From Candidatus Margulisbacteria bacterium GWF2_35_9 (lineage in GTDB: Bacteria > Margulisbacteria > Riflemargulisbacteria > GWF2-35-9): a stretch of DNA of 42,219 nucleotides. Below are positions 1 to 14,568 of the stretch, piece after piece. Location: the NCBI GenBank assembly GCA_001783275.1, contig MFRH01000090.1:1-42219 (forward strand), in the 5' to 3' direction. The notes under the pieces are model-generated. The model was not told the DNA's origin. It did not search any database and was given only the letters and a program-made list of their open reading frames with translations. The position numbers were made by a program, and so were the translations under genes. Each line of letters opens with the position of its first letter. The stretch's first letter is position 1.

Positions 1-609
1 AAGACCCATCTTGTCTTCAGGGTGTCCAAAGGAAAGCCCTTGGGCGTCCTTTTCGATGAGCAGCGCGCTCATTCCTTGTGAACCCTTCTCCGGGTCCGTC
101 CGGACAAGCACTAGGTAGACATCCGCTTCACCCGCTGACGTGATGAAGAATTTCGAACCGTTGACGATGTACTCGTCCCTGACGATCCTCGCTGTGGTGG
201 TGATCGCTCCCGCATTGCTGCCGCTGTTGGACTCATGCACGGCGAAAGCCCCCAAGGCCCGGCCTGCCGTCATCTTTGGAAGCCATTTTTCCCTGACAAG
301 GTCTGTTGCAGCCGTCTCGATGGCTTTTTCCGCTATGATGTGGGACACGGCCACCAGTGCCGTCGAGGCGCATGCACGGCCCAATTCGGTTGCAAGCAAT
401 GCAAAGTCTTTCCGCGAAGCGTTCGCGCCACCATGCTTTTCAGAAACGACCATTCCCAGAAGTCCAACGTCTGCGAGGACTTCGATTGCCTCGCGAGGAA
501 ATACTCCGTTTCTGTCACGCTCCCCGGCCGTTGGGGCAATCCGCTCCTTGGCGATCCGCCGGACGAGGTCTCTTTCCTCCTTCTCAATAAAACCCTTGCT
601 CTCTTCCAT
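1..609 (-). CDS. Acyl-CoA dehydrogenase, N-terminal part; runs off the left edge and is absent from the supplied ORF track
   Basis: Manual translation from ATG 609 with an AAGGAG SD: MEESKGFIEKEERDLVRRIAKERIAP...GAFAVHESNSGSNAGAITTTA...YIVNGSKFFITSAGEAD...GHPEDKMG, typical ACAD motifs. Confidence 0.93.
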   Translation of the reverse strand, partial: MEESKGFIEKEERDLVRRIAKERIAPTAGERDRNGVFPREAIEVLADVGLLGMVVSEKHGGANASRKDFALLATELGRACASTALVAVSHIIAEKAIETAATDLVREKWLPKMTAGRALGAFAVHESNSGSNAGAITTTARIVRDEYIVNGSKFFITSAGEADVYLVLVRTDPEKGSQGMSALLIEKDAQGLSFGHPEDKMGL

Positions 610-656
610 AGCTTTTTCTCCTTTCCATGTGCCATCACCTGGATGACTTATTAAGT

Positions 657-677
657 TATAAAGCAAACACTTAAATA
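657..677. promoter_or_regulatory. Putative ArsR-type operator upstream of the acyl-CoA dehydrogenase
   Basis: TATAAAGCAAACACTTAAATA matches 1126-1146 at 15/21 positions. Confidence 0.45.
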
Positions 678-698
678 TATGTCAAAAAAAATAGTTTC

Positions 699-1115
699 TT
701 ACTCCGTCGCTATTTCCTTAATCCTCGCACGCACTTCTTCAAGCTCCTTCTTGAGCTCCCGCTCGTATTTTTGCAGCAAAGTAAGCTTGTCCTCCGTTTT
801 TTCCAACTCCGCTTCCCGGACCCGACCGGTGTCCTTGCAGCCGCATGTGCAAACTTCAGTCAGGAGTTCCCGACACTTATCCAAGGCGGACTGATCGATC
901 TCGTAGGGTAGCCAGTATCCTTTCCGCTCGCTGCGGACCAGACCCGCATATCGGAGTATCTTCAGATGCTGCGACACGGCCGAAGCAGTGATTCCCAGCA
1001 CTTCGGACAGTTCGTTGACTCCGAGAGGACCTTTCTTCTTGAGCAGGTCAATAATCCTGATGCGCGACTCGACACCCAATACTTTGAAAAGGTCGGCTTG
1101 TTTGGTCTCGTTCAT
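699..1115 (-). CDS. ArsR/SmtB family transcriptional regulator with C-terminal CTCGC motif and coiled-coil tail
   Basis: LFKVLGVESRIRII...SAVSQHLKILRYAGLVRSERKG winged HTH; GGAG SD. Confidence 0.92.
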   Translation of the reverse strand: MNETKQADLFKVLGVESRIRIIDLLKKKGPLGVNELSEVLGITASAVSQHLKILRYAGLVRSERKGYWLPYEIDQSALDKCRELLTEVCTCGCKDTGRVREAELEKTEDKLTLLQKYERELKKELEEVRARIKEIATE

Positions 1116-1125
1116 AAATCTCTCC

Positions 1126-1146
1126 TATTCAGTAGATGCTTAAATA
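1126..1146. promoter_or_regulatory. Putative autoregulatory ArsR operator
   Basis: Imperfect palindrome TATTCAGTAGATGCTTAAATA adjacent to the SD. Confidence 0.5.
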
Positions 1147-1251
1147 CTACATCTGATAGAGAGCTTTGTAAAGCCCCTTTTCATTTTTTTGGGAGATTTT
1201 TTTTAGCATGCACCAGCTGCTTTTGGAGGACATTACGCAAGAAAGATCCTT

Positions 1252-1398
1252 CATAACAAAATGGAAATGACGAGTAGACGTGCGTATGGTTTTAGAAATT
1301 TTCAAAACTACAGAATGAAAGTGAGGGTTGCTTGTGCTTAATTTATATTTTAAAATCTATTTATCAAGAGTTGTTGCCCCCATTAATGTTGTAGAGCC
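1252..1398 (+). mobile_element. ISL3-family remnant: transposase C-terminus plus right inverted repeat
   Basis: 1252-1341 reads HNKMEMTSRRAYGFRNFQNYRMKVRVACA*, the ISL3 RRAYGFRNF signature; the element ends ...GTAGAGCC (GGCTCT-type terminus) at 1398. Confidence 0.85.
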
Positions 1399-1526
1399 TA
1401 GAGCCCTCATCCCAGTTTCAACAAGATTAATTGTTATCAACTAGGGAATCAGCGAGATATAATCGAGCGTTAAGGGAGGAATACTTGATTCCCCTCTTAA
1501 ATACGTTCAAGTTTTAACTAATCGAT

Positions 1527-1556
1527 TGGTCGGCCTTAGTGGACGACGTTCGAACC
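1527..1556. repeat. att-like repeat, copy 1
   Basis: TGGTCGGCCTTAGTGGACGACGTTCGAACC; 29/30 identical to copy 2. Confidence 0.9.
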
Positions 1557-1560
1557 ATTA

Positions 1561-2751
1561 TTAAGATTGAACTAACCAATCAAGTGCATAAATTTGTTTG
1601 ATTCCATTATGAGAAGATGCGGGTTCGTTATCCAATGTTAGTAAATATTTGGGATTATGATCTTTTATATTATTTAAGGATTCTAATTCTCTTCGAAGTG
1701 TATCTTCATGTTGAACAGTTTGCGCAACCTGGTAATATTCAACATTTCCATCCTTTAATGCAACAAAGTCTACTTCGAGGATTCCCACTTTTCCTACATA
1801 AACGTCATAACCTCTTCTGATAAGTTCTAAATAAACAATATTTTCTAAAATTCGACCCATATCCGTTTTTTTAGTTCCAAGCAAAAAATATCGCAGACCT
1901 ACGTCTACAGCGTAATATTTTTCATTTGTTTTCAAATATTGTTTGCCTTTGATGTCATAGCGGCTTGCTTTATATAAAATAAAAGAATCTAACAAAGCTG
2001 ATATATAGTTTTCAACAGTATGATTAGACACTTTCCTGCCAGCCGAAGTTAGGCTATCACTAATTTTTTTAATGGAAGTTATATTACCAATATTATCAAA
2101 CATATATTTCACGACACTTTCAAGAACAGCTACATCTGAAATGTTTTTTCTTGCAACCACATCTTTTAAGATGACAGTATTGTATATCCCATCTAAGTAT
2201 ATTCCGATTTGTTTAGAATCAAGTTCTATAGTGTATGGAAACGAGCTGTTAACAAGATAGTTCTTATATCTTGTCGGCAAGTCAGATTGTTCTGAAAATG
2301 CAGATAAATATTCTTGAAAAGATAATGGCAGTATTTTAATTTCAATATATCTTCCAGATAATAGAGTAGCTAGTTCACCTGATAGAAAATAAGCGTTTGA
2401 ACCAGTTATATATATATCTACGTTTTCTTTTATGTATAGTCCGTCAACAGCTTTTTGATAATCGGTAACATTTTGGATTTCATCTAAGAATACATAGTTC
2501 TTTTTATCTTTAGTTAAACGATTCTCAATATACTTATAAAGATTTTTGTAATCTTGTAGCTCTTCAAAATCAGGATTTTCAAAATTTATTGTTATAATTT
2601 GATTTGGATTTACATTATTTTTTAACAAGTAAGTTTGAAAAATATTGAGCAGGGTTGATTTTCCACCCCTGCGAATACCTGTGATGACCTTTATTAATTG
2701 TTTATCCTTAAAGCCAATAAGTTCATTTATGTATCTATCTCTCTTAATCAT
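1561..2751 (-). CDS. AAA_14 + DUF4143 ATP-binding protein
   Basis: GIRRGGKS Walker A, FLDEIQ Walker B, TGSN, LSGR, ENIVYLEL, EVDFVA...YYQV. Confidence 0.93.
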   Translation of the reverse strand: MIKRDRYINELIGFKDKQLIKVITGIRRGGKSTLLNIFQTYLLKNNVNPNQIITINFENPDFEELQDYKNLYKYIENRLTKDKKNYVFLDEIQNVTDYQKAVDGLYIKENVDIYITGSNAYFLSGELATLLSGRYIEIKILPLSFQEYLSAFSEQSDLPTRYKNYLVNSSFPYTIELDSKQIGIYLDGIYNTVILKDVVARKNISDVAVLESVVKYMFDNIGNITSIKKISDSLTSAGRKVSNHTVENYISALLDSFILYKASRYDIKGKQYLKTNEKYYAVDVGLRYFLLGTKKTDMGRILENIVYLELIRRGYDVYVGKVGILEVDFVALKDGNVEYYQVAQTVQHEDTLRRELESLNNIKDHNPKYLLTLDNEPASSHNGIKQIYALDWLVQS

Positions 2752-2798
2752 ATAGTGATTATAACCTACTTTAAATAGTTTTGGAAGTCAGCTTCCAT

Positions 2799-2877
2799 AA
2801 ATGCTGAATCTTGTACGTTTTTGGAAGCATGGTCGGCCTTAGTGGACGATGTTCGAACCGTACAAGATTCAGCATTT
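2799..2877. repeat. Perfect 19-bp inverted repeat enclosing att-like copy 2
   Basis: AAATGCTGAATCTTGTACG (2799-2817) / CGTACAAGATTCAGCATTT (2859-2877). Confidence 0.9.
2830..2859. repeat. att-like repeat, copy 2
   Basis: TGGTCGGCCTTAGTGGACGATGTTCGAACC, followed at about 2904 by CAGTCAAATGACAGTCAAATAAGA. Confidence 0.9.
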
Positions 2878-2943
2878 GGTCTTTTTCCCATCATAAATTT
2901 TGCCAGTCAAATGACAGTCAAATAAGATGCCTGAAATGTTTTA

Positions 2944-4186
2944 TTATTCCACATGCCAATATCCACCAGTTTTTTTACTTCCACGTCTTTCGATTAAATT
3001 TTTATCCGCCAGTTTTCGTATTTGTTTATCTACCGTATCAATAGGTCTATCCAGAATTTCTGAAAGCTCCTTCGCTTTTAGTCCCGGACTTTTTTTAATT
3101 GCATCAAACAATGAATTTAATCCGCCAATTTCTTCCGCCGGCTCTTTGATTTCTACCAACGCACCTTCGGCTTTAACCTGATTCTCCAAATCAAGTGCTT
3201 CTTGATCTATGGGAAAAGTAAGCCGAATGAATCTGGAAGCAAACGTGTAAGATTCTTTGGGATAAGCTCCCAAGATCCTTGGCATGCCTGAACCAAGATA
3301 TTCAACCATGTCTAAATCCTTAAAAACTCGCATGAGGGTCTTATTTCTTGGATTAGAATAGCCGGCAAAAAAGTCTTCCCGATCTTCTCCGGCAGAAATG
3401 TGCCCAGCAGAAGTAATTTCTATTCGGTCAGTAAATATTTCAAATTTGGGAACCAGCTCTGTTGTATAATCATTGTGAAGAATGGCATTGAGAATTGCCT
3501 CACGAAGAGCTACGGTATTCCAAAGGTTTTTATTAATTCTTTTATTTGAGGTAATTCTATTAATTGTTCTATTCTCAATAGTTTCCATCCTATCTAAAAT
3601 TCTCTTGCAAGTAGTTACTAAACAACCATAGCCGTATTCTTTGCTTTCTAAAAGATGAATACGGTCTGCTCCGGCGTACTTTGCCACTTGAGTAGAGTTT
3701 CCATTTTCATCAGCTAACAAATAGGCAGCATAATTATAAGCACCATCTTCGGTTAACAGTTCAAGGTTTGCTGTAAATTTATCACCAAGAGTAAGCCCAG
3801 CTTCCTGATAATAGATTTTTAACTGTTCAAAACTTAGATCTTGCCGAGGGGATTTGATTCGAGTAATGGAGTTTCGAGTTCGTCTGGCAAAAGCATCTTC
3901 AATCATCCTGACAGGCATTGGTTCAGTTGCACTGCCAATGCGGATAAAACATCCTTTTTCTGACATGCCGTATTTTTTGATATAGTATGGTTTTTCCGAA
4001 CCACTGGCTAAAGCCACTTTAATAATTTGTTTGTTGTCTCTAGTTTCGCAGATGACATCAAACAGTCCCAAACAAGATGGTAGAATATTATTCTTCAAAC
4101 GATCTTTTATTTTTAGTTGAACTGAATCTGCATCCTCGATGCCAAGAACATTTCCAGTTTTATCAAAAAATCCGAGATATATATAC
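2944..4186 (-). pseudogene. 5'-truncated AlbA_2/Schlafen-like + HATPase_c_4 + wHTH protein
   Basis: KPYY...CFIRIGSATEPM, REAILNAILHNDY, DRIEITSAG, NPRN, GSGM, RRGSKKTGGYW. Family resemblance starts abruptly at IYLG; the N-terminal ExK/AFxN part is missing. Confidence 0.75.
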
Positions 4187-4460
4187 GACAGCCATAGATT
4201 ACGACAAACAATCTGAGCAGGCACAGCTTTTTTTCAAAAAAGTACAGAACAAGATGCTCTGGGCGACTACCGGAAAAACGGCAGCGGAACTTATTGAATC
4301 ACGAAGCAATCCTGATGTTCCCAACATGGGCCTGACATCCTGGTGCGGCTCTATAGTAAGAAAACAAGATGTTGGTATTGCCAAGAATTATCTTAATGCG
4401 GATGAGATAAAAGACCTTAATGAGATCGTTACCATGTACCTCGATTATGCTGAGCGGCAG
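4158..4460 (+). pseudogene. Internal fragment of a RhuM-family (virulence RhuM) protein
   Basis: FYQKIRDIYTTAIDYD...FFKKVQNKMLWATTGKTAAELI...NMGLTSW...AKNYL...YLDYAERQ; both ends missing. Confidence 0.85.
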
Positions 4461-4519
4461 GTGATCTTGGTCGCTCAAAAAAACAATCTCTTGTATTTGT
4501 CATAATAAGAATTCCTTGT

Positions 4520-5227
4520 TTAAACTAAACCCACTCCGATTCCTGCTGCGATTAATAGAACACCACATATTTTTTTTATCAAGAAAACTGCCCGATTATT
4601 CCGGTTCCATTTCAGCCATGTTTCAGCTGCTTCTGTCAGAGTCCCTGCAAGGATAATTACGCTGCAATGCCCCAAGGCATACATCAATACTAATCCCAGC
4701 GAAAAGGTTAAATGTGTGCCAGCTGTTTGGAAGGCTACACCTAATACCGGCATCATAAAGGCAAACGTACAGGGCCCCAAGGCCATCCCCATTAAACCTC
4801 CTAATATCAAAGCTGCCAGATACCCTTTACGTTTAAAAAAGGAAAAATCAGTGTTAATAAAGGGCAGCCGGATAATTTCTAATAAATATATTCCAGTTAT
4901 CACTAATAACATGGCCAAAAGATAGTCACTTATAGGACCAATGTCTCCCATTATTCGTCCCATTAAAGAGGTAATAACAGCAATAACCGCAATAGACAGT
5001 AAAATACCTAAAGAAAAAAGCGTTGATAGTAAAAACGCTTTCTTTATAGATGGCTTTTCCTGACTGATTACCATGCCACTGACAAAACCAATAACCAGAG
5101 GAATACTGGATAAATGACAGGGGCTAAGCAATATGCTTAATATTCCCCAGACAAAAGCAGTTATTAATGCCAATACTGGGCTGCCATAAAGTGCTCCCGT
5201 TAGAGAATTAAACAAATCTAAAAGCAC
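4520..5227 (-). CDS. CcdA/DsbD-type transmembrane thiol-redox protein (ArsG-like position)
   Basis: LSPCHL and GPCT cysteine pair, multiple TM helices. Confidence 0.85.
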   Translation of the reverse strand: MLLDLFNSLTGALYGSPVLALITAFVWGILSILLSPCHLSSIPLVIGFVSGMVISQEKPSIKKAFLLSTLFSLGILLSIAVIAVITSLMGRIMGDIGPISDYLLAMLLVITGIYLLEIIRLPFINTDFSFFKRKGYLAALILGGLMGMALGPCTFAFMMPVLGVAFQTAGTHLTFSLGLVLMYALGHCSVIILAGTLTEAAETWLKWNRNNRAVFLIKKICGVLLIAAGIGVGLV

Positions 5228-5634
5228 TATTTAACACCTTCTTGTTTTAATATTTTTATTAATTCTTCTTTGGGGAAAAACCCTTCATGTCTGAAGTATT
5301 CTTTACCGTCCTTATCGAGAAATATCTGAGTCGGAATGGCTCTTATTTTATAATGTTGACCATAGGGTTGCCCCATTTTAGTCCACACATCGTAAAACAC
5401 AACCTTAACCTGTCCGGCGTATTCCTTTTCAACATCTGCCATAATTGGTTGCATCATCTTGCAAGGGATACATTTAACAGAACCTAATTCTATAAAAGTA
5501 ACGAGAGGCTGGCTGGTTACGATCGTTTCGCTGACATCTTTGGATGGGTCTGATTTAATAGAAACACCTTCTTTATTTAGTGCAAAAACAAGAGGAAATA
5601 AAATAAAAATTAATAGAATGATTTTCTTATTCAA
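5227..5634 (-). CDS. Exported thioredoxin family protein
   Basis: Signal peptide, CIPC motif, IPTQ cis-Pro. Confidence 0.9.
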   Translation of the reverse strand: MNKKIILLIFILFPLVFALNKEGVSIKSDPSKDVSETIVTSQPLVTFIELGSVKCIPCKMMQPIMADVEKEYAGQVKVVFYDVWTKMGQPYGQHYKIRAIPTQIFLDKDGKEYFRHEGFFPKEELIKILKQEGVK

Positions 5635-6146
5635 CTATACACCTCCTTATTTATTTTGGATTTAGCTTCAACATAAAACAGCTTTTCCAGATACAGATTA
5701 ATCTCTTTGATGAAACAAGACTTAAATGCGGGGTAGTCGTAAACAAAATTCCAGATTTCCCATGGCTTTTTGTAATCTTTCTCTTCAGAATCTTTAACTA
5801 AAACCAGAACTAAATCGTTGTGTTCTAGTTTGTACTTATCTTTGTAGGTGTTGCTATCAGGAGATATCGACAGGTTAACAATTATTAATTCAATTTGTTT
5901 TTTATCTATTTCTTTTTGATAGTTTTCTCCCAGAACCTTACAAATATTTTCTTCCATCCTGAGACAAAAATCGCAGCGATAATCCCCATGGAAATAGTAA
6001 ACTTTTATCTGGTTCTTAACCATAGCTGATGGAGAAACAATAATCGGCTCTCCCTTTGCCACAGCGATCGTGTTTTGCATAACTAAAGCGCCAAGACAAA
6101 CTGCAACGTATAATCCTTTAAGCGGTAATACTTTTGCTGATTTCAC
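5631..6146 (-). CDS. Exported thioredoxin-like protein, ArsF-like
   Basis: VYYFHGDYRCDFC motif, N-terminal hydrophobic segment, ars context. Confidence 0.7.
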   Translation of the reverse strand: MKSAKVLPLKGLYVAVCLGALVMQNTIAVAKGEPIIVSPSAMVKNQIKVYYFHGDYRCDFCLRMEENICKVLGENYQKEIDKKQIELIIVNLSISPDSNTYKDKYKLEHNDLVLVLVKDSEEKDYKKPWEIWNFVYDYPAFKSCFIKEINLYLEKLFYVEAKSKINKEVYS

Positions 6147-6501
6147 TTGTTACCTTATAAATAACATCGTTTGTAACGTCTGTTTTATTCTTTTCTACAC
6201 CATAATCGGTAGTAACATAATGCTCAAAAGGCAGGTTCAGATTTTCAAATATTTTTTTACCACATGCGACCGGGCAGCCGTCAATGACAATATTTTTGGC
6301 ACATTTGGCAGATTCGATAAAACCGGATAATCCAGCTCCGACAGCTGCAAGGCACGTCATTTTCCCATTGCCGTCTTTCATCATTTTACGAGCAACAGCA
6401 TCCGCCAGATAACCGGTGTTGGCTGCACCTGAACAGGCATAAATAAGTGTTAAACTATCACTTCCACAACTACAGCAATTAGACATAATTAATTCCTCCA
6501 A
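6118..6501 (-). CDS. DGC-domain putative zinc-binding protein
   Basis: YACSG, CLA, IDGCPVACG. Confidence 0.88.
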   Translation of the reverse strand: MEELIMSNCCSCGSDSLTLIYACSGAANTGYLADAVARKMMKDGNGKMTCLAAVGAGLSGFIESAKCAKNIVIDGCPVACGKKIFENLNLPFEHYVTTDYGVEKNKTDVTNDVIYKVTSEISKSITA

Positions 6502-6505
6502 ACTT

Positions 6506-6808
6506 TTATTTTTGAGCTAAATATTTTTCAAAAACCTCTTTATTCCAGCTTGTCTGGGTGGCCGCGGCCTGCGTGGCAACAATCAGGAGAGTTTCAGTAA
6601 TTTCCTGCCGTGACGCACCGCCAGCCAGCGCTTTTTTCAGATGGCTGTGCGTACAGTGCTGACAGCGGAGAACAGACGCTATAGCAAATTTAATTAACTC
6701 TTTAGTTTTTGTGTCCAAAAAACTTTCTTCGTTACTGGAAGCTTTCAAATTCTCCAGAGCATCACCAATCTTTGATCCTTTCGTGTACCAAGGCTTTTCT
6801 TCTGTCAT
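6506..6808 (-). CDS. Carboxymuconolactone decarboxylase / AhpD-like protein
   Basis: LDTKTKELI...RCQHCTHSH...GASRQEI. Confidence 0.88.
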   Translation of the reverse strand: MTEEKPWYTKGSKIGDALENLKASSNEESFLDTKTKELIKFAIASVLRCQHCTHSHLKKALAGGASRQEITETLLIVATQAAATQTSWNKEVFEKYLAQK

Positions 6809-6810
6809 AA

Positions 6811-7050
6811 CTATTCTCCTTTAATGTATTTGCTGATTTCAACCGGTGACGGTACTTTACCCACTGTTTTCACGATTCCGTCAATGACTAATGCCGGAGT
6901 CATCATTACGCCATAAGATTGAATCTTAGCCATTTCTTCAACTTTAACGATATCAGCTTCTATGCCAAGCTCAGCCACTGCCTGCTCGGCATTTTTATAA
7001 AGCACCTTACATTTCGGACACCCCATACCTAAAATTTCTATTTTTTTCAT
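6811..7050 (-). CDS. MTH895/ArsE-like small redox-active disulfide protein (Thioredoxin_3)
   Basis: ILGMGCPKC...YGVMMTPALVIDG...GKVP. Confidence 0.92.
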   Translation of the reverse strand: MKKIEILGMGCPKCKVLYKNAEQAVAELGIEADIVKVEEMAKIQSYGVMMTPALVIDGIVKTVGKVPSPVEISKYIKGE

Positions 7051-7063
7051 TTTTTTCTCCTCC

Positions 7064-8026
7064 TTAAAAAATTATATTTAATACCCATCCATTAATTGTG
7101 AAAAGAACTAGTAGCAATATAAAAAATGTTATTAGCAACCGAGGTTTCATTACCTGTTTTAGCATCATGAATTCTGGAAAACTTGCTGCTGACATACTCA
7201 TCATGAATGCTATCGCTGTTCCTATTGGCAGCCCTTTGTTGATTAAACTTTGAGCGACAGGTATCACTCCATTAACGTTGCTATATAATGGTATTCCTGT
7301 TAGTACAACCAGTGGTACATTCCACCATGCTCTGCCATGAAAATAAGTGCTGATAAATTCTTCGGGAATATATCCGTGGAGCAGTGCTCCTAATCCGACA
7401 CCAATTATAATGTATTTCCAAACCCTGCCTACGATTTCTTGTAACTCATATTTAGCAAATTCATGCCTGTCCTTTAAAGAAAGCTGTTTTTTTTCTGCTA
7501 CACGTTGTTGTATGTCATTTTGTTTGAAAACAAGTAGATGCTTTTCCGCTTTTGTTGCGTCAAAGAACCAGCCACCTACTATTCCAGATATCATGCCGAT
7601 AACTACATAGATAATCATAAATTTTAATCCTAGAATACTGCCTAATAAAAGTACTGCTACCTCATTTATCATTGGTGATGTTATAAGGAACGACATTGTA
7701 ATTCCAATTGGAATATTTGCTTGAGTAAATCCTAAGAATAAAGGAATGCTGGAGCAGGAACAAAACGGCGTTATTGCACCAAAGATCGATGCTAAAAAGT
7801 ATCCGATAAACCTATTCTTGCCAGATAGATAATCTCTTATAGTTTCAATGTTAATGGATGCCCGTATGACAGCAATTCCATAAACCATAATTACAAGTAA
7901 TACAAATATTTTTGATGTATCTTCTATAAAGAAATGGATGCTTTTTGCTAGATGAGAGTTCGCATTCATGTTGAAGAGATCATAAGTTAAATAGTCAGCA
8001 AGCACTGTAAATATTCTTAACATCAA
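7064..8026 (-). CDS. arsP: ArsP/DUF318 permease
   Basis: TPFCSCSSIP signature; two hydrophobic halves. Confidence 0.88.
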   Translation of the reverse strand: MMLRIFTVLADYLTYDLFNMNANSHLAKSIHFFIEDTSKIFVLLVIMVYGIAVIRASINIETIRDYLSGKNRFIGYFLASIFGAITPFCSCSSIPLFLGFTQANIPIGITMSFLITSPMINEVAVLLLGSILGLKFMIIYVVIGMISGIVGGWFFDATKAEKHLLVFKQNDIQQRVAEKKQLSLKDRHEFAKYELQEIVGRVWKYIIIGVGLGALLHGYIPEEFISTYFHGRAWWNVPLVVLTGIPLYSNVNGVIPVAQSLINKGLPIGTAIAFMMSMSAASFPEFMMLKQVMKPRLLITFFILLLVLFTINGWVLNIIF

Positions 8027-8368
8027 TTACTCCTTTGGTATCATTTCTCTATCGACGGACTTAATTTGTTCGATATCTTTTTGGATTATTTCGTCACTGC
8101 CGAGCCATTCCGATAGTACGCTTAATAGAATTTTTTCGTACGGTTGGGACGTAGGTGTTAAGTAGTAGTTTGTCCATAAGCCTTCTTGTTCACTCATAAT
8201 GAGACCGGCATCTTTCATTTTTTTTAAATGTTGCGAAACACTGGGTTGCTTAATTTGTAATACATAGGCTATTTCGCATACACAGCATCGTTTTGCTTCA
8301 AGCATCTTATATATACGAAGTCTGTTTTTATCAGATAATATCTTTAGAATTTGCTCTACTTTATTCAT
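8027..8368 (-). CDS. arsR: ArsR family regulator (start revised to ATG 8368)
   Basis: CCVCEI metalloid-binding motif, SVSQHL; GGAG SD before MNKVEQ. The longer ORF-track start would run through the operator. Confidence 0.9.
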   Translation of the reverse strand: MNKVEQILKILSDKNRLRIYKMLEAKRCCVCEIAYVLQIKQPSVSQHLKKMKDAGLIMSEQEGLWTNYYLTPTSQPYEKILLSVLSEWLGSDEIIQKDIEQIKSVDREMIPKE

Positions 8369-8382
8369 ATCGTGCTCCATCC

Positions 8383-8402
8383 ATATAGGCAGTTGCCTAT
8401 AT
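8383..8402. promoter_or_regulatory. ArsR operator
   Basis: Perfect 9-2-9 palindrome ATATAGGCA-GT-TGCCTATAT just upstream of the SD. Confidence 0.8.
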
Positions 8403-8500
8403 AATAAAACAATTACGATCAATATTCAATATGATTTTTTAAAAAATTCAACTTTTTTAATTTGTTTGTTGTCTATATGTTTAATTCCTATCTAATCATG

Positions 8501-8530
8501 TGGTCGGGCTTAGTGGACGATGTTCGAATC
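8501..8530. repeat. att-like repeat, copy 3
   Basis: TGGTCGGGCTTAGTGGACGATGTTCGAATC (28/30 vs copy 2), followed at about 8545 by CAGTCAAATGACAGTCAAATAAGA. Confidence 0.9.
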
Positions 8531-8617
8531 ATTGTGAGGGATAGCAGTCAAATGACAGTCAAATAAGAATTCTAAAATATTTCATTTTTTGCATCTATGT
8601 TTAAAATTTGACATTTG

Positions 8618-8689
8618 TGGTATAGTATTAATATCTCAACTACCTATGGTAGAAGGAGTAACGAAAACGTCTCTATCGAGGCGTTTTTT
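8618..8689 (+). ncRNA. Candidate small RNA of about 57 nt (8633-8689) with its promoter and terminator, convergent on the 8673 ORF
   Basis: Extended -10 TGgTATAGT (8618-8626), hairpin CTACC-TAT-GGTAG, terminator AAAACGTCTC-TATC-GAGGCGTTTTTT. Confidence 0.5.
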
Positions 8690-9182
8690 GCTTTATATAG
8701 GCAGTATATTCTTTTAATAGTTTATCCCTTGTATGCGAATATGTTACTGGGTATGCTGTCCATGGCAAAATATATCCTTTGCGTTTAGCTAGTACAACAA
8801 CATAATCTTTTTGTTCAAGCCATAAAACAATTCTTGTTTCACTTTTTCGTATATTCTCCCACACTTTAACCTCGGTTTTAGCTTCATTTAGAATGACAGG
8901 CTTTACCCAAGGCAATTTTGAGGCTCTGCTATATTCTATTGTTCTGGTCATTTCATCTTTTCCCTCTGTTATCATATGCCAAAAAGTAGCTTCTTTGTTA
9001 TCTTTTTTAGGGTGTTTCTTTAGAGCAAGTTTTTGCCCTCTGAAATTTGCCGGATCATTAATAAAATCTTCTGTGAATATTCTGTATAAAGCTTGAATAT
9101 AGGTTGCTTCTGTTACATTCTTTTGCTTGATAAACTCATTGGGTAGCCAGTTGAAATCTGCCATTAGTCTTGAGGTCTCCAT
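8673..9182 (-). CDS. Hypothetical protein, possible BECR/RelE-fold ribonuclease
   Basis: FWH motif, R..LPW, C-terminal beta strands YVVVL...WTAY; overlaps the DUF3800 stop. Confidence 0.6.
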   Translation of the reverse strand: METSRLMADFNWLPNEFIKQKNVTEATYIQALYRIFTEDFINDPANFRGQKLALKKHPKKDNKEATFWHMITEGKDEMTRTIEYSRASKLPWVKPVILNEAKTEVKVWENIRKSETRIVLWLEQKDYVVVLAKRKGYILPWTAYPVTYSHTRDKLLKEYTAYIKQKTPR

Positions 9183-9868
9183 TTAAAAATATTAAACTTA
9201 TTTTCCGTTAAATAGGTGCTTTTTAGCAAAGAATACTCTGAACGCTCCCGTATTCTCTCTACAATTTTAAGTTTAGATTCACTACTGGTTAAATTTCTAT
9301 TAGCATAACCAACCGCACCAACCAGTAAATCCGTTAATTGAAGCAACTCTATTTCATGAGATTTAACGATTTGGATTCTATTGATTATCCGTTCTTCATG
9401 GTGATCATAAAAATCATTTCGCAGTACCTCTTTTAGTTTCTTTACTTTGTGTCCACCACAGGTATCTTTTATATCAATATATATATTGTTTTTGGCATGG
9501 GGGTCTAAAATTCCTTTTAACATTCCAAAATACATTTTATAGTAAAAATCATCATGTGACTGCCCAAAACGAGTATGGTTAAGTTTTGTTTTATCCGGGA
9601 CTATCAAAACTCTAAATTGTAAGCTGTCATTATCAAAAAAGTAATCAATCAGATCAAGATAATAATTAATTTTTGATCTTGATGTTTTGATCCATTTTGT
9701 TTCCCAATTAAAATTTAATCTATGTTTTTTCTTAATATCTCTTAGCCTGGAAAATGCTTCCTGTTTCTTGTCTTCCAGACAGGAGATGGCTCCTAACACC
9801 ATAACATTACATTTGTCATTTTCAAGATGGCAGGATTCATCGCAATAAATATTAACTATCTTTGGCAT
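9164..9868 (-). CDS. DUF3800 domain protein (RNase H-like fold)
   Basis: IYCDES, ExKW, IYID, SHEIELLQLTDLLVGA; GGAGGTG SD. Confidence 0.88.
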   Translation of the reverse strand: MPKIVNIYCDESCHLENDKCNVMVLGAISCLEDKKQEAFSRLRDIKKKHRLNFNWETKWIKTSRSKINYYLDLIDYFFDNDSLQFRVLIVPDKTKLNHTRFGQSHDDFYYKMYFGMLKGILDPHAKNNIYIDIKDTCGGHKVKKLKEVLRNDFYDHHEERIINRIQIVKSHEIELLQLTDLLVGAVGYANRNLTSSESKLKIVERIRERSEYSLLKSTYLTENKFNIFKWRPQD

Positions 9869-9910
9869 TTTTTACACCTCCCTGAATTTAGTTAGCATAC
9901 CTCTACCAAT

Positions 9911-9931
9911 TGTCGTGACAGTGTCACGACA
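9911..9931. repeat. Perfect 10-1-10 palindrome
   Basis: TGTCGTGACA-G-TGTCACGACA, 43 bp upstream of the DUF3800 ATG. Confidence 0.85.
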
Positions 9932-10141
9932 TTCTGGATTGTTTAACTCTGTTTGATTATCGTTGCTTTTTAATTTATTCATATTTTTCCTTTACTCCGC
10001 TTATACCTTTTTTGTTTTTCCGCATCATATCAAAAATAAACTCCTGATATCTTCGTTGAAAATAAGAATTGATTGCTTATATTGATTATTATAGTTGAAA
10101 TAAGTTTTTAGATAAAGGATTGCCTGCTCGACAAACCTCAT

Positions 10142-10218
10142 TGGTCGGGGTGGCCAGATTTGAACTGACGACCACTTGCCCCCCAGACAAGTGCGCTACC
10201 GGGCTGCGCTACACCCCG
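10142..10218 (-). tRNA. tRNA-Pro(GGG)
   Basis: CGGGGTGTAGCGCAGCCCGGTAGCGC...CT GGG GG loop...GTTCAAATC...CACCCCGACCA; CCA encoded. Confidence 0.97.
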
Positions 10219-10268
10219 ACATTCTGATAACAGAAAATATTATAGCGTTTATATACTTTTTACTAAAG

Positions 10269-10814
10269 TTATTTTTCTGAAGTTTTTGCAGGAGATACTA
10301 ATAAATGAACCAGTTGAAACACGATTAACGTCATCGTTTGATAAATAATCAACATATCATAATTTAGCACCCAGAAAAGCAATAAGGAAAAGCTGAAGAA
10401 CACAGTTTCAATAACCGTATTTGTTTTTCTTCGTTTTATTAATCCAAATCCATGTAATAACCCAAAAACGATTCCGAACCAGATATTCTGATAAAGTATA
10501 AATATAAGTGGGAATATACCCGTCTCTCTTGGGTTATCCTTCTGCCAGAAAGGAAAAACAATTCCTGAAAAAAATGCCAGCAACAGAAAATAATTCTCTG
10601 CTCGCAACACCATAATTAATACTATTATTTTTATTATTTCATAGGAAACTACATACCAAAACTGATAGAACTCCATATATTGGAGTACTTTTACTTTTTC
10701 ATTTAGTTTAAATCGAACAAGGGGTTTGCTTCCTTCTATTTGAGTTAATGCATACTTAATTCCAGGTAAGGTTGCGACAAAATAAACCAGTATCAGTCCA
10801 AGGACTAATATCAT
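10269..10814 (-). CDS. Hypothetical multi-pass membrane protein
   Basis: Highly hydrophobic; ATGA overlap with the lysC stop. Confidence 0.7.
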   Translation of the reverse strand: MILVLGLILVYFVATLPGIKYALTQIEGSKPLVRFKLNEKVKVLQYMEFYQFWYVVSYEIIKIIVLIMVLRAENYFLLLAFFSGIVFPFWQKDNPRETGIFPLIFILYQNIWFGIVFGLLHGFGLIKRRKTNTVIETVFFSFSLLLFWVLNYDMLIIYQTMTLIVFQLVHLLVSPAKTSEK

Positions 10815-12028
10815 TTTTCAAGTTCAAAGCCATCGTGAAGTAGCCTTACCGCTTTTTCCGTGTCCTTTGAATTAATGATACATGATACTTTTATTTCTGA
10901 GGTTGTTATCGAGTCGATATTTATTCCATTACCACCCAACATTGAAAACATTCTGGCAGCCACACCTGGACTTGACATCATTCCAACTCCAATAATGGAT
11001 ATCTTAGATACGTTATTATCATGAACAACATTTGAAGCTTTAATACTTTTCGCGTACTCTTTAGTAATCTCTAAGGCTTTTATTAAATCATCTCGTGAAA
11101 CGGTAAACGCAATGTCGTTATGACTATCTACCTGATTACTTTGGATGATCATATCCACATTAATTTTGGCATCTGCTAATTTAGTAAATAACTGGCCAGC
11201 AATACCTGGAACATCAGGAAGCTCCAGTATCGCAATTTTTGCAACATTTTCGTCATATGCTATTCCTGTCACCGGATTTTTTATTTCCATTTTTGAAACC
11301 TCCTTAACTATTGTTCCTTCGCTAAAATTATAACTGGATCTGACATGTATCTCTAAGCCATAAGCCTTTGCACCTTCAACTGCTCTTGGGTGTAGCACCT
11401 GTGCCCCAAGACTCGCCATTTCTAACATTTCATCATATGAAATTACTTTATGTTTTTTCGCATTTTTTATTAGCGACGGATTCGCAGTATAAACTCCATC
11501 CACGTCAGTATATATTTCACATACAGTTGCTTTTATTGCAGCTGCGATTACTACCGCGGAAGTATCTGACCCTCCCCGTCCTATCGTGGTTGTATCATCT
11601 TGACTATTTACACCTTGAAAACCGGTTACGATTACAACTTTCCCTAAAGTGAGTTCCTCTAGGATTCTCTCTGGCTTAACGTCGAGAATTTTAGCCTTAT
11701 TGTGAACATCTTCAGTATATACTCCTGCTTGTCTTCCGGTTAATGAAATTGCTTCATAACCCTGTTGGTGCAGTGCCATTGCCAAAAGTGACGCTGAAAC
11801 AGTTTCGCCTGTCGATATCAATGCGTCAAATTCTCTACCGGATGGAGCCGGCATAATTTCCATAGCTAATTTTACGAGTTCATCCGTTGTATGCCCCATT
11901 GCAGATACAATGACAACCATGTTATTGCCTTGTTCTTTTGCTTTAATTATACGATCGGCGACTCTTTTTATTTTGTTAGTATCTCCGACACTGGTTCCAC
12001 CATATTTCTGAACAATTATATTATCCAA
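10811..12028 (-). CDS. lysC: Aspartate kinase
   Basis: VQKYGGTSV, VSAMG, GRGGSDTSA, two ACT domains. Confidence 0.97.
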   Translation of the reverse strand: MDNIIVQKYGGTSVGDTNKIKRVADRIIKAKEQGNNMVVIVSAMGHTTDELVKLAMEIMPAPSGREFDALISTGETVSASLLAMALHQQGYEAISLTGRQAGVYTEDVHNKAKILDVKPERILEELTLGKVVIVTGFQGVNSQDDTTTIGRGGSDTSAVVIAAAIKATVCEIYTDVDGVYTANPSLIKNAKKHKVISYDEMLEMASLGAQVLHPRAVEGAKAYGLEIHVRSSYNFSEGTIVKEVSKMEIKNPVTGIAYDENVAKIAILELPDVPGIAGQLFTKLADAKINVDMIIQSNQVDSHNDIAFTVSRDDLIKALEITKEYAKSIKASNVVHDNNVSKISIIGVGMMSSPGVAARMFSMLGGNGINIDSITTSEIKVSCIINSKDTEKAVRLLHDGFELEK

Positions 12029-13320: not shown

Positions 13321-14568
13321 TCAATCCGTATTAGAATCTCCTACTTTATCTGCTGACCCTCTTTTCATTATTCCATTTTTTGATTCTGTCATCACAAATT
13401 CTATAAAACCTTTAACTTCTTCGGTTTCTTTAATCTCTTTTCTAATTTTTTCTATCGCTTGAGTTGTATTTAAACTAGATCGATAAAATATTTTATAGAC
13501 ATCTTTCATTGCTTTCTTCTGTTCATTTGTATAATTATGACGATCCATTCCAATTGAATTTAATGTGCGAATAACGGCTGGATTTCCCTCAACCAACATA
13601 TGCGGTGGAATATCCTGTCGAACTGAAGAGTAACCACCTACCATTGCAAAATCACCAATTCGGGTAAACTGAAGGATACCAGTCATTCCACCGATTATTA
13701 CATTATTACCTATTTGAAGATGCCCCGCTAACTGTGCCGCATTTGAAATGACGACATTGTTACCAATAACACAATCATGGGCGATATGAACGCTGGTTAA
13801 AAAAAGATTGTCATTACCAATCAATGTTTTCCCACCCTTCTCAGTGGCACGATTAATGGTTACATATTCCCTGATATCATTTCTATGTCCTATCTCAACA
13901 TAACTCTTTTCGCCTTTGTACTTCTTGTCTTGTGTTGTATTTCCAATAATGGTTCCATAATGGATATGACAGTCATTTCCGATCGTTACCCATTTTTCAA
14001 TAACGACATTTGCCTCTATTATGACGCCATTTCCGATTTTTACTCCTTCTCCGATGTACACATGGGGGCCGATGGTAACATCTTTACCAATAACTGCATT
14101 CGGATGAATTTTTGCGGTCGGATCAATCCTCTTTTCAATTTGTCCATCAATAATCGATAGGGTAATCTCTGCTTCTGCAACCACTTTTCCTTCAACAAAT
14201 ATCTTCCCTAACGTTTTCCCGACAGGTCCTTTAATTTTTTTTAAATCAACTTCTAACCTTAATTGATCACCAGGAAATACGGGGCGCTTAAATCGAACAT
14301 CCTGAATAGCTGCAAAATAAGCTAATTTACCCTTTGAATTTGGGATTGAAGAAAGAAGAAGTATTCCAGATATTTGCGCTAACGCTTCAATCATTAATAC
14401 TCCCGGCATAACTGGATGACCTGGGAAGTGCCCTTGAAAGAAAGGCTCATTAATCGTTGTATTCTTTATACCCACTATCCGCTTGCCTTCTTCAAGCTCT
14501 AACACTTTATCTACTAATAAGAAGGGATACCGATGAGGCAAACAATCCATTATTTCATTAACGTCCAC
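13321..14568 (-). CDS. fabZ-lpxA: FabZ-LpxA fusion (3-hydroxyacyl-ACP dehydratase + UDP-GlcNAc O-acyltransferase)
   Basis: LPHRYPFLLVD and GHFPGHPVMPGVL, then in frame IDPTAKIHP hexapeptide repeats, QDKKY, HIAHDC, LAGH. Confidence 0.93.
   Translation of the reverse strand: MDVNEIMDCLPHRYPFLLVDKVLELEEGKRIVGIKNTTINEPFFQGHFPGHPVMPGVLMIEALAQISGILLLSSIPNSKGKLAYFAAIQDVRFKRPVFPGDQLRLEVDLKKIKGPVGKTLGKIFVEGKVVAEAEITLSIIDGQIEKRIDPTAKIHPNAVIGKDVTIGPHVYIGEGVKIGNGVIIEANVVIEKWVTIGNDCHIHYGTIIGNTTQDKKYKGEKSYVEIGHRNDIREYVTINRATEKGGKTLIGNDNLFLTSVHIAHDCVIGNNVVISNAAQLAGHLQIGNNVIIGGMTGILQFTRIGDFAMVGGYSSVRQDIPPHMLVEGNPAVIRTLNSIGMDRHNYTNEQKKAMKDVYKIFYRSSLNTTQAIEKIRKEIKETEEVKGFIEFVMTESKNGIMKRGSADKVGDSNTD

What the first reader, a model, noticed from the sequence alone, without database searches (positions are those of the whole stretch)
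1527..10218. tRNA-Pro-anchored, integron-like tandem cassette array delimited by a 30-bp att-like repeat
Seen: three co-oriented copies (1527, 2830, 8501) of TGGTCGG(C/G)CTTAGTGGACGA(C/T)GTTCGAA(C/T)C. Their first 7-8 bp equal the start of tRNA-Pro on this strand (TGGTCGGG at 10142, the tRNA 3' CCGACCA). They fall between unrelated modules: AAA/DUF4143, ars cluster with debris, and DUF3800 pair. All intact cargo genes share the tRNA's strand, and no recombinase is in the window. Inference: successive site-specific integrations at the tRNA 3' end, each leaving a hybrid att site, catalysed in trans. The repeat translates as WS(A/G)LVDDVR(T/I), which I recall resembling C-termini of tRNA-targeting large serine recombinases (unverified). 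If so, this is a non-integron gene-capture platform for defence and resistance cargo.
Basis: partly seen in the sequence, partly recalled or inferred. Interest (0 to 1): 0.85.

Follow-up and report, generated by a model that had tools for sequence, protein, structure and literature searches.

The report
Decayed serine-recombinase island array at tRNA-Pro
The three 30-base repeats are leftover attachment sites, and at the same time leftover 3' gene ends, of large serine recombinase elements that inserted one after another at the end of a proline tRNA gene, left defence and resistance genes behind and lost their recombinases; this kind of array is already known from another bacterium.

Summary
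There are three co-oriented copies at 1527, 2830 and 8501, none expected by chance and none elsewhere in the genome. Their first 7-8 bases equal the reverse complement of the tRNA-Pro(GGG) 3' end at 10142.

Full-length large serine recombinases (LSRs, about 530 aa) carry ...WS[AG]L[LVM]DDVRT... 21-39 residues before their stop. The 30-mer is therefore the crossover core plus the element-side (P') half-site of an attP that lies inside the recombinase gene.

In this phylum, 18 of the 20 best LSR loci overlap a tRNA or tmRNA 3' end. A sister genus has an intact 6-kb LSR element at the orthologous tRNA-Pro(GGG).

The window holds only tails and cargo. No LSR body is present, and the 87%-complete genome shows no Resolvase domain.

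Best reading: a decayed tandem array. It closely parallels the Dehalococcoides ssrA islands with DsiB (PMC3146451). The "integron-like platform served in trans" is not supported, but not excluded.

The parts
1..1250 (-). Outermost segment held in the contig: an acyl-CoA dehydrogenase fragment (1-666, runs off the contig) and an ArsR-family gene (699-1115). GC is 50-57% against about 33% elsewhere. It is foreign-looking and could be a further island; its far boundary was not assembled.
   Evidence: a Logan contig of the source sample bridges 747-1507 without a mismatch
1501..1559 (+). attP-like site 1. It consists of a 26-nt P-like arm (1501-1526, reads ...LID in frame), the core TGGTCGG (1527-1533) and the P' half-site (1534-1556). 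The frame from 1527 to 1601 reads WSALVDDVRTIIKIELTNQVHKFV*, a recombinase 3' tail.
   Evidence: (D2)
1561..2751 (-). Cargo of segment 1: an AAA_14/DUF4143 ATPase, which matches PADLOC defence candidate PDC-S01 (E 1e-159).
2830..2925 (+). Site 2: the 30-mer (2830-2859) plus the rest of a recombinase tail frame, WSALVDDVRTVQDSAFGLFPIINFASQMTVK*. The left flank is unrelated to sites 1 and 3, so this is an attL-type junction. It is bracketed by a 22-nt inverted repeat (2799-2820 and 2856-2877).
   Evidence: (D3, I3)
2944..4505 (.). Debris in segment 2: an N-terminally truncated AlbA_2/HATPase_c_4/wHTH gene (2944-4224, - strand) overlapping a RhuM fragment (4077-4505, + strand; profile positions 93-195 of 252; PDC-S05).
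   Evidence: 49% identical to the complete RhuM gene of the intact G003 element
4520..8422 (-). Cargo of segment 2: ArsR (8027-8422), ArsP permease (7064-8026), Thioredoxin_3 (6811-7050), CMD (6506-6808), DGC (6118-6501), ArsF-family (5631-6146), thioredoxin (5227-5634) and a CcdA/DsbD-like membrane protein (4520-5227).
8475..8566 (+). attP-like site 3: a P-like arm (8475-8500, reads ...LIM), the 30-mer (8501-8530) and a tail frame WSGLVDDVRIIVRDSSQMTVK* ending at 8566. It has the same ...SQMTVK* end as site 2.
   Evidence: (D2, D3)
8673..9868 (-). Cargo of segment 3: a DUF3800 protein (9164-9868, PDC-M04A, E 5e-92) and its partner (8673-9182, PDC-M04B, E 9e-55). Found in 4 of 146 genomes of the phylum, G000 included.
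9869..10141 (.). Non-coding spacer where an intact element would carry the recombinase body. No recombinase remnant was detected.
10142..10218 (-). tRNA-Pro(GGG), the integration target. Its last bases CCCGACCA (+ strand TGGTCGGG, 10142-10149) are the core shared with the repeats. The locus is orthologous in 5 of 6 genomes of the family (AspK, membrane protein, tRNA-Pro); in G002 no tRNA-Pro was found in the stretch fetched.

Best explanation
The 30-mer is one half of a large serine recombinase (LSR) attachment site. It combines the crossover core, which equals the last 7-8 nt of tRNA-Pro, with the roughly 22-bp element-side (P') half-site.

In this LSR family attP lies inside the 3' end of the recombinase gene. 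The free element encodes ...WS|xLVDDVRT...stop across attP. Integration at the tRNA 3' end splits the gene. The body ends up convergent with, and fused to, the tRNA. The tail, which is the 30-mer plus 20-40 codons, ends up at the far end of the element.

The window shows a tandem array of at least three such insertions downstream of tRNA-Pro(GGG). All recombinase bodies have since been deleted, leaving cargo plus tails.

Shown: the tail homology, the tRNA linkage in other genomes, an intact homologous arrangement in a sister genus, erosion intermediates, and absence of an LSR here.

Inferred: the crossover lies within TGGTCGG. The P' arm is kept because it is the recombinase binding site; it imitates the tRNA acceptor/T-arm with the T-loop-like motif about 5 bp further out, as in the attP versus attB rule of the A118/LI integrase. 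The order of insertion and the way tandem junctions arise are open. The array is now most likely immobile.
For: (1): nine LSRs were found with the L012 fragment. Seven are full-length (521-540 aa), one is a 281-aa fragment and one is 493 aa; eight carry PF00239+PF07508+PF13408 and the 281-aa fragment (P0003) carries PF13408 only. Eight of the nine read ...WS[AG]x[LVMW]D[DN]VRT... followed by 21-39 residues. The ninth (P0006) stops at ...WSG.
(2): in L012 and L010 LSR similarity runs through the 30-mer (L012 1257-1481 against P0004 residues 443-514, E 9e-11; L010 4747-4950, E 1e-4). L012 5057-5380 is an LSR body that ends ...YSIWSA and then continues as tRNA-like sequence.
(3): 71 of 146 genomes of the phylum have LSR matches. 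Among the 20 best loci, 18 LSR frames overlap the 3' end of a convergent tRNA or tmRNA gene, 1 has a tRNA 1.2 kb away, and 1 is cut by the contig end.
(4): G003 (same family) has the same AspK/membrane-protein/tRNA-Pro(GGG) neighbourhood. It carries an intact LSR reading ...FIDWSGWRDSNP through the tRNA, and 5.9 kb away a junction TGGTCGACTTTGTTCGAAAAAATTCGAACC in the expected orientation.
(5): 30-mer variants lie 0.6-1.7 kb downstream of a co-oriented tRNA-Pro (CGG, GGG, UGG) in a sister genus and in two unrelated 54%-GC metagenome contexts.
(6): P' aligns best with the tRNA at offsets +4 and +5 (45 and 46 of 110 positions, against 12-38 at the other offsets). Only 7 of 2000 shuffles reach this. 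In G003 a 9/9 match ATTCGAACC sits at +5. Passages of PMC3783163 give the 5-bp rule.
(7): the 10-residue motif is kept (6-10 of 10) while the rest of the tail is not, and tails are mosaic relative to bodies. This is as expected if crossover occurs at WS.
(8): no LSR body in the window, no Resolvase domain in the genome, and one catalytic-domain-less LSR relic on C61.
(9): passages of PMC3146451 describe the same architecture in Dehalococcoides.
Against: LSR rules (attP x attB only) do not readily explain tandem P-core-P' junctions, and how they arise is not shown.

Sites 1 and 3 keep only about 26 nt of P-like arm with no further recombinase remnant. Two independent deletions ending at the same distance from the core are a coincidence under pure decay. 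The P-like arms are only 17 of 26 identical to each other (my count on the D2 rows), and their likeness to real LSR ends rests on ...[LF]IDWS alone.

The offset test uses related, non-independent sequences.

The left boundary of the array is not assembled. The genome is 87% complete, so a recombinase may be missed.

The DUF3800 pair in relatives is not next to a tRNA or LSR in the stretches fetched, so no window cargo other than RhuM was tied directly to an LSR element.
Confidence: 0.75

Rival explanations
1. The segments are recombinase-less cassettes that carry a complete minimal attP (sites 1 and 3, 59 nt with both arms). They are inserted, excised or carried along by an LSR supplied in trans by a co-resident or incoming element. 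They would then be cis-mobilisable elements or pseudo-SCC-like cassettes.
For: Sites 1 and 3 share exactly a 59-nt block, the size of an LSR attP, and nothing further upstream. In all five contexts where this 30-mer family was found (G000, G001, L010, L012, L016) no intact LSR lies in the cassette. Passages of PMC3146451 raise the same possibility for ssrA islands without integration modules.
Against: No serine-recombinase catalytic domain is present in the assembled genome. L012 and L010 show graded LSR remnants beside the repeat, which fits erosion. Site 2 and the G001 site have no P arm. No joint at any repeat was seen in the contigs of the source sample, though contigs cannot show rare forms.
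Confidence: 0.15
2. These are ordinary tyrosine-integrase islands, and the repeats are displaced copies of the tRNA 3' end.
For: Islands at tRNA genes are mostly of this type (passages of PMC4383910). Real tRNA-Pro 3'-half relics of that kind occur in L016.
Against: The repeat shares only 7-8 nt with the tRNA. The other 22 nt are not tRNA sequence, yet they are conserved across genomes of 33% to 57% GC and match LSR gene ends. No tyrosine recombinase is on the contig.
Confidence: 0.03
3. The 30-mer is a structured RNA, a tRNA-like relic, or a regulatory or REP-type repeat.
For: It ends (on the - strand) in CCGACCA and contains a T-loop-like GTTCGAA.
Against: There are no Rfam matches apart from the true tRNAs. 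No fold is shared by the three copies. There are only three copies in the genome. Spacing from the T-loop-like motif to the 3' end is 5 nt too long for a tRNA (my reading of the sequence).
Confidence: 0.02
4. The array is an assembly artefact: unrelated pieces joined at a 30-nt repeat in a metagenome bin.
For: Logan contigs of the source sample break near copies 2 and 3 (pieces end at 2812 and 8263 and restart at 2878 and 8558). The first 1.25 kb has a foreign GC content.
Against: A 30-nt repeat is shorter than a read. One exact contig spans copy 1 (1481-2812) and another spans the GC change (747-1507). Depths are alike at 4.3-7.4. Similar arrays occur in independent assemblies (L012, G001).
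Confidence: 0.04

Closest known systems
Dehalococcoides ssrA genomic islands with the serine recombinase DsiB (McMurdie et al. 2011, PMC3146451; passages read)
   Same: Both have tandem islands downstream of a tRNA-type gene, each bounded by a short direct repeat of its 3' end with an extra conserved motif beside the repeat. Both use an LSR of about 540 aa whose gene always overlaps the att site at its 3' end and reads into the neighbouring island or the target gene. In both, some islands lack an integration module and the cargo is adaptive.
   Different: The target here is tRNA-Pro (tRNAs in general for this phylum), not tmRNA. The shared core is 7-8 nt at the extreme 3' end rather than 20 nt reaching the T-loop. 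No small DsiA-like partner recombinase is seen in the intact G003 element. In this window every recombinase is gone. Whether the LSRs are close kin of DsiB was not tested.
SCCmec / Ccr recombinases and ccr-less pseudo-SCC elements in tandem at rlmH (orfX). This is recalled; only the CcrB comparison in PMC3146451 and the NCBIfam scores were seen.
   Same: LSR-driven islands insert at the 3' end of one conserved gene. Composite or tandem arrays occur, including members without a recombinase, and they carry resistance cargo.
   Different: P0008 and the G003 LSR score far below the CcrA/B/C cut-offs (60-85 bits against 700-900). The target is a protein gene. The ccr genes do not span the att site, as far as I recall.
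Phage LSR att sites: the A118/LI integrase model of Rutherford et al. 2013 (PMC3783163; passages read)
   Same: Short attP/attB sites with a tiny crossover identity. The distal (zinc-ribbon) motif of an attP half-site recurs in attB 5 bp closer to the centre. Here GTTCGAA (ATTCGAACC in G003) lies about 5 nt further from the core in P' than the T-loop does in the tRNA.
   Different: Classic phage LSRs have attP outside the int gene and attB inside protein genes. The symmetry of the site here is weak, and the binding was not tested.
Integrons (IntI, attI, attC cassettes)
   Same: A co-oriented array of cargo units separated by a recurring recombination site next to a fixed anchor.
   Different: There is no IntI-type tyrosine recombinase on the contig and no attC-like conserved hairpin. 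The units are multi-gene islands with their own regulators and debris. The repeat is a recombinase gene end.
Accretion and cis-mobilisable elements (CIMEs) of the Streptococcus ICESt1/ICESt3 type. This is recalled; it is cited within PMC3146451.
   Same: Tandem elements share att sites, and some lack recombination genes.
   Different: Those use tyrosine integrases.

Membership tests
LSR attachment site (attP-derived junction) | The sequence is part of, or contiguous with, the element's own recombination module | tested here: met
   The 30-mer translation matches the LSR C-terminal tail motif in 8 of 9 LSRs. LSR remnants run through it in L012 and L010.
LSR attachment site (attP-derived junction) | Short identity with attB at the crossover, which restores the target gene | tested here: met
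   TGGTCGG(G) equals the reverse complement of the tRNA-Pro 3' end in G000, G001, L010 and L016. In G003 the shared core is CGACCA.
LSR attachment site (attP-derived junction) | A half-site of about 25 bp whose distal motif is 5 bp further out than in attB | tested here: inconclusive
   The best offsets are +4 and +5; 7 of 2000 shuffles reach the observed match. However, the five pairs are related sequences, and binding was not tested.
LSR attachment site (attP-derived junction) | Recombination by the cognate LSR | not testable with these tools
   This needs an in vitro or in vivo assay.
Integrative element with its own LSR (intact island) | An LSR gene (Resolvase + Recombinase + Zn ribbon) within the segment | tested here: not met
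   No LSR body in window 1-10300. PF00239 has 0 matches in the genome. The feature is met in sister genus G003.
ssrA-GI-type tandem tDNA islands (Dehalococcoides) | Tandem islands downstream of one tDNA, bounded by its 3' end repeat, with an LSR gene overlapping the att site | tested here: met
   LSR overlap with a tDNA is seen in 18 of 20 phylum loci. The LSR itself is missing in this window.
ssrA-GI-type tandem tDNA islands (Dehalococcoides) | Six-gene integration module including DsiA, and the tmRNA target | tested here: not met
   The target is a tRNA. The G003 element has only the LSR, three long ORFs (472 aa of no clear family, a SIR2_2 protein, RhuM) and a gap at 4881-5553 holding an inverted attP-like copy; short ORFs there were not scanned.
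Integron | IntI tyrosine recombinase with attI and Pc beside the array | tested here: not met
   PF00589 has 7 matches in the genome, none on contig C90.
Integron | attC sites: imperfect palindromes folding as single strands | tested here: not met
   DNA folds of the three sites on the + strand give z -2.2, -7.6 and +0.8. The strong one comes from a flanking repeat peculiar to copy 2.
Tyrosine-integrase tRNA island | A displaced copy of a longer tRNA 3' segment, and an integrase gene | tested here: not met
   Only 7-8 nt of tRNA identity and no integrase on the contig.

The most novel reading that the evidence does not exclude
The 59-nt sites 1 and 3 are complete, still functional attP sites without a recombinase gene. 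On this reading the locus is a serine-recombinase counterpart of a cassette platform: defence and resistance modules that any passing LSR of this tRNA-Pro-specific family can excise, exchange or add to. The tRNA junction would be regenerated as a usable attB because the flank-side half-site is not sequence-specific.
Probability: 0.1. Interest if true: 0.7.

Novelty: new member of a known kind. Interest (0 to 1): 0.4.

Why it matters
For this window the result is ordinary. It explains a striking repeat as scars of mobile elements, and shows how a small-genome, uncultured groundwater bacterium (Marinamargulisbacteria by the title of its relative's record) acquired candidate phage-defence genes and an arsenic/redox cluster.

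The wider point is about the recombinase family.
- In this phylum the closest relatives of these LSRs (the 20 best of the matches in 71 of 146 genomes) are mostly tied to tRNA or tmRNA 3' ends, and their genes span the att site.
- A 2014 database paper stated that serine integrases were not known to target tRNA genes (PMC4383910, passages).
- The P' arm appears to imitate the tRNA arm with the canonical 5-bp shift. This gives a simple sequence rule for predicting attP and attB of such enzymes directly from the gene end, which may interest people who mine LSRs for genome engineering.

I could not establish whether recent island databases already describe this. My searches found no such description apart from the Dehalococcoides paper. 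Supplements were closed.

Tried and rejected
Structured RNA: Rfam at the E-value threshold on window 1-12000 and on five loci gave only the true tRNAs and one chance hit.

Coding on the - strand (...GSNVV[HY]*): no open frame upstream, and G001 lacks the stop. Rejected.

Phage origin: two scans of viral contigs found nothing.

Dyad symmetry: an ungapped scan gave no single clear centre. A gapped reading places GTT[CT]AA and GTTCGAA symmetrically about TGG|TCGG in copies 1 and 3; this is suggestive only.

Codon test: among the 30-mer variants, by my count 3 of 6 variable sites are synonymous in frame +1. This is too few to prove coding selection.

Tail as a functional switch: outside the 10-residue motif, tails are far less conserved than bodies and are mosaic. 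A regulatory C-terminal swap on integration is therefore not favoured.

Left boundary: the core gene that follows tRNA-Pro in G001, G004 and G005 has no clear ortholog at a contig end of G000.

Cargo in relatives: the DUF3800 pair occurs in G005, G001 and G106, with no tRNA, LSR or 30-mer in the stretches fetched.

Reads: only contigs were available. No joint coincides with a repeat. One cold-spring run holds parts of segment 2 at about 92-99% identity. This is neither support for nor evidence against mobility.

Not run: complex prediction, structure prediction and the protein atlas, because the question did not need them.

Full report
**1. The observation**

The degenerate 30-mer occurs three times, at 1527, 2830 and 8501, all on the + strand. 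None is expected in 100 shuffles. Allowing three mismatches, these are the only copies in the 2.35-Mb, 86.9%-complete assembly.

tRNA-Pro(GGG) lies at 10142-10218 on the - strand. On the + strand it begins TGGTCGGG, as the repeats do.

Copies 1 and 3 share a longer 59-nt block (1501-1559 and 8475-8533). Copies 2 and 3 share a 45-nt block a little downstream.

The segments between the repeats hold the following:
- An AAA_14/DUF4143 gene (PADLOC candidate PDC-S01).
- A truncated AlbA_2/HATPase_c_4 gene overlapping a RhuM fragment, then an ArsR-ArsP-thioredoxin-CMD-DGC-ArsF-like-thioredoxin-CcdA-like cluster.
- A DUF3800 pair (PDC-M04A/B).

The first 1.25 kb of the contig is 50-57% GC against about 33% elsewhere.

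**2. What the repeat is not**

Rfam finds nothing but the tRNA. On the - strand the repeat ends in CCGACCA and contains GTTCGAA, but the spacing is 5 nt too long for a tRNA 3' end. The three copies share no single-strand fold.

**3. Where else it occurs**

Among 41 genomes (G000 and 40 relatives), only G000 and G001 of the same family have it. G001 has two copies with 3 mismatches each.
- One G001 copy lies 665 nt downstream of a co-oriented tRNA-Pro(CGG), with a PIN-domain gene and a small ORF between.
- The scan of species genomes found only that genome, titled a Marinamargulisbacteria MAG.

The metagenome scan found 7 loci. L014 repeats the G001 locus. The other six fall in three contexts of 53-57% GC (L010=L013, L011=L016, L012=L015).
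- In L010 the repeat is 0.6 kb downstream of tRNA-Pro(GGG).
- In L016 it is 1.7 kb downstream of tRNA-Pro(UGG), with an Mrr_cat gene between.
- In L012 no tRNA lies in the stretch held.

The link to tRNA-Pro therefore recurs in unrelated genomes. The 22 nt beyond the core stay nearly constant while everything around them has drifted to the host's base composition.

**4. The key result**

L012 4997-5431 is the C-terminal 145 aa of a large serine recombinase. Its nine database relatives comprise seven full-length proteins (521-540 aa), a 281-aa fragment and a 493-aa protein; eight carry Resolvase + Recombinase + zinc-ribbon domains and the 281-aa fragment carries only the zinc-ribbon domain.

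Eight of the nine read ...WS[AG]x[LVMW]D[DN]VRT... followed by 21-39 more residues. One stops at ...WSG.

tblastn shows:
- In L012 and L010 recombinase similarity runs through the repeat (E 9e-11 and 1e-4).
- L012 holds a second tail copy.
- The L012 recombinase body ends ...YSIWSA and then continues as tRNA-like sequence (...QRDSNF).

In the window, each repeat opens a short frame that ends like a gene:
- WSALVDDVRTIIKIELTNQVHKFV*
- WSALVDDVRTVQDSAFGLFPIINFASQMTVK*
- WSGLVDDVRIIVRDSSQMTVK*

**5. The family habit**

Searching the phylum with P0008 gave matches in 71 of 146 genomes. Among the 20 best loci:
- 18 recombinase frames overlap the 3' end of a convergent tRNA or tmRNA gene, and their last residues are the translation of its complement (W.G..[DE]SN[PQ]...).
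- 1 has a tRNA 1.2 kb further on and a non-tRNA tail.
- 1 is cut by the contig end.

G003, of the same family as the window's genome, has the same LpxB/AspK/membrane-protein/tRNA-Pro(GGG) neighbourhood. Its features are:
- An intact 517-aa LSR reading ...FIDWSGWRDSNP... through the tRNA.
- Cargo of a 472-aa protein of no clear family, a SIR2_2 protein and a complete RhuM/PDC-S05 gene.
- At 9370-9399, in the expected orientation, the reverse complement of TGGTCGACTTTGTTCGAAAAAATTCGAACC next to unrelated flank.

This is an intact example of what the window holds in ruins. The RhuM fragment at 4077-4505 is 49% identical to the G003 gene.

**6. Mechanism**

attP lies inside the recombinase gene. 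The P arm is the end of the gene body, the core is TGGTCGG (codons WS), and the P' arm is the next 22 nt. attB is the tRNA 3' end plus its downstream flank.

Integration gives flank-core-P'...cargo...body-core-tRNA. The core supplies the tRNA's last bases, so the tRNA stays whole.

P' resembles the tRNA arm with the T-loop-like motif about 5 nt further from the core.
- Summed over five pairs, matches peak at offsets +4 and +5 (45 and 46 of 110). Only 7 of 2000 shuffles reach this.
- In G003 the 9-mer ATTCGAACC recurs exactly at +5.
- Rutherford et al. 2013 (passages) showed for the A118-family integrase that the zinc-ribbon motif of attP recurs in attB shifted 5 bp toward the centre.

I therefore infer that the 30-mer is conserved as a protein-binding half-site. 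The rest of the tail is poorly conserved and is mosaic relative to the body: P0001 and P0002 have bodies 87% identical but tails 8 of 26; P0002 and P0008 have bodies 66% identical but tails 16 of 30. This fits exchange at the core and argues against a functional role for the tail peptide.

**7. The state of this locus**

No recombinase body is left.
- An HMM of seven full-length LSRs finds only the three tails in six-frame translations of 1-10300.
- The genome has no Resolvase domain. It has one Recombinase-domain ORF that lacks the catalytic domain.
- No tyrosine recombinase is on the contig.
- Sites 1 and 3 keep a 26-nt P-like arm reading ...LID/LIM before WS (compare ...FIDWS in G003). Site 2 and the tRNA junction do not.

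I read this as a tandem array of at least three elements whose recombinases were deleted. L012 and L010 show intermediate stages.

**8. What stays open**

- How P-core-P' junctions arise under LSR rules. The Dehalococcoides authors met the same pattern.
- Whether the 59-nt sites are still usable.
- Where the array ends on the left.
- The contigs of the source sample neither show nor exclude excision.

**9. Comparison with known systems**

McMurdie et al. 2011 (PMC3146451, passages) describe the following in Dehalococcoides:
- Tandem islands downstream of ssrA, bounded by a 20-bp repeat of its 3' end.
- A further conserved motif beside the repeat.
- Islands without integration modules, which they suggest may be cis-mobilisable.

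The present locus is a new member of that kind. It has a tRNA-Pro target, a shorter core at the extreme 3' end, and no recombinase left. It is not an integron. The Islander paper (passages) said in 2014 that serine integrases were not known to target tRNA genes. My four literature searches found no later description of such a clade, but I saw listings and passages only, and supplements were closed.

**10. Verdict**

Confidence in the decayed-array reading is 0.75, and interest is 0.4.

Noticed in passing
L038 (G003:C24) 4960-5095 and 9303-9399: In the intact sister-genus element, a second attP-like copy lies inverted just upstream of the recombinase start. It consists of the last 45 nt of the recombinase coding sequence, the core, and 96 nt of the P' side. 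The P'-side stretch is 100% identical to the distal junction (97% over the 97 aligned nt), so the cargo (5096-9302) is flanked by near-perfect inverted copies. It may be an invertible segment or a nested relic.
   Followed up: partly
window 2799-2820 and 2856-2877: A 22-nt, 95% complementary inverted repeat brackets 30-mer copy 2. The DNA fold is -24 kcal/mol with z -7.6. Copies 1 and 3 have nothing like it. Its origin is unexplained.
   Followed up: partly
window 1-1250: This stretch is 50-57% GC, against about 33% for the rest of the window. It holds an acyl-CoA dehydrogenase fragment and an ArsR-family gene. An exact contig of the source sample bridges the GC change (747-1507). A more abundant, about 87% identical variant of 1-776 is also in that sample.
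   Followed up: partly
L016 3862-3906 and 5507-5620: These are 3' halves of tRNA-Pro(UGG) starting at the anticodon loop. They look like relics of a different integration class at the same tRNA, next to the serine-recombinase tail.
   Followed up: no
G000:C61 about 101574-102782 (L017 1021-2229, - strand): This is the only Recombinase-domain ORF in the genome (402 aa). It lacks the catalytic Resolvase domain, starts with a hydrophobic stretch, and has no tRNA nearby.
   Followed up: partly
window 13321-14568 (-): A single 415-aa ORF reads like FabZ at the N-terminus followed by hexapeptide repeats as in LpxA, next to LpxB. This was judged by eye only.
   Followed up: no
window 3118-6559, run X3: Contigs of a cold-spring metagenome from another study hold pieces of segment 2 (the AlbA_2-like gene and parts of the ars/redox cluster) at about 92-99% identity. 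In the pieces listed there is no long match to segments 1 and 3.
   Followed up: no
L012 1413, 4320 and 5057-5380: An unrelated 57%-GC metagenome contig carries its own array: two tail copies and a recombinase body fragment fused to tRNA-like sequence.
   Followed up: partly
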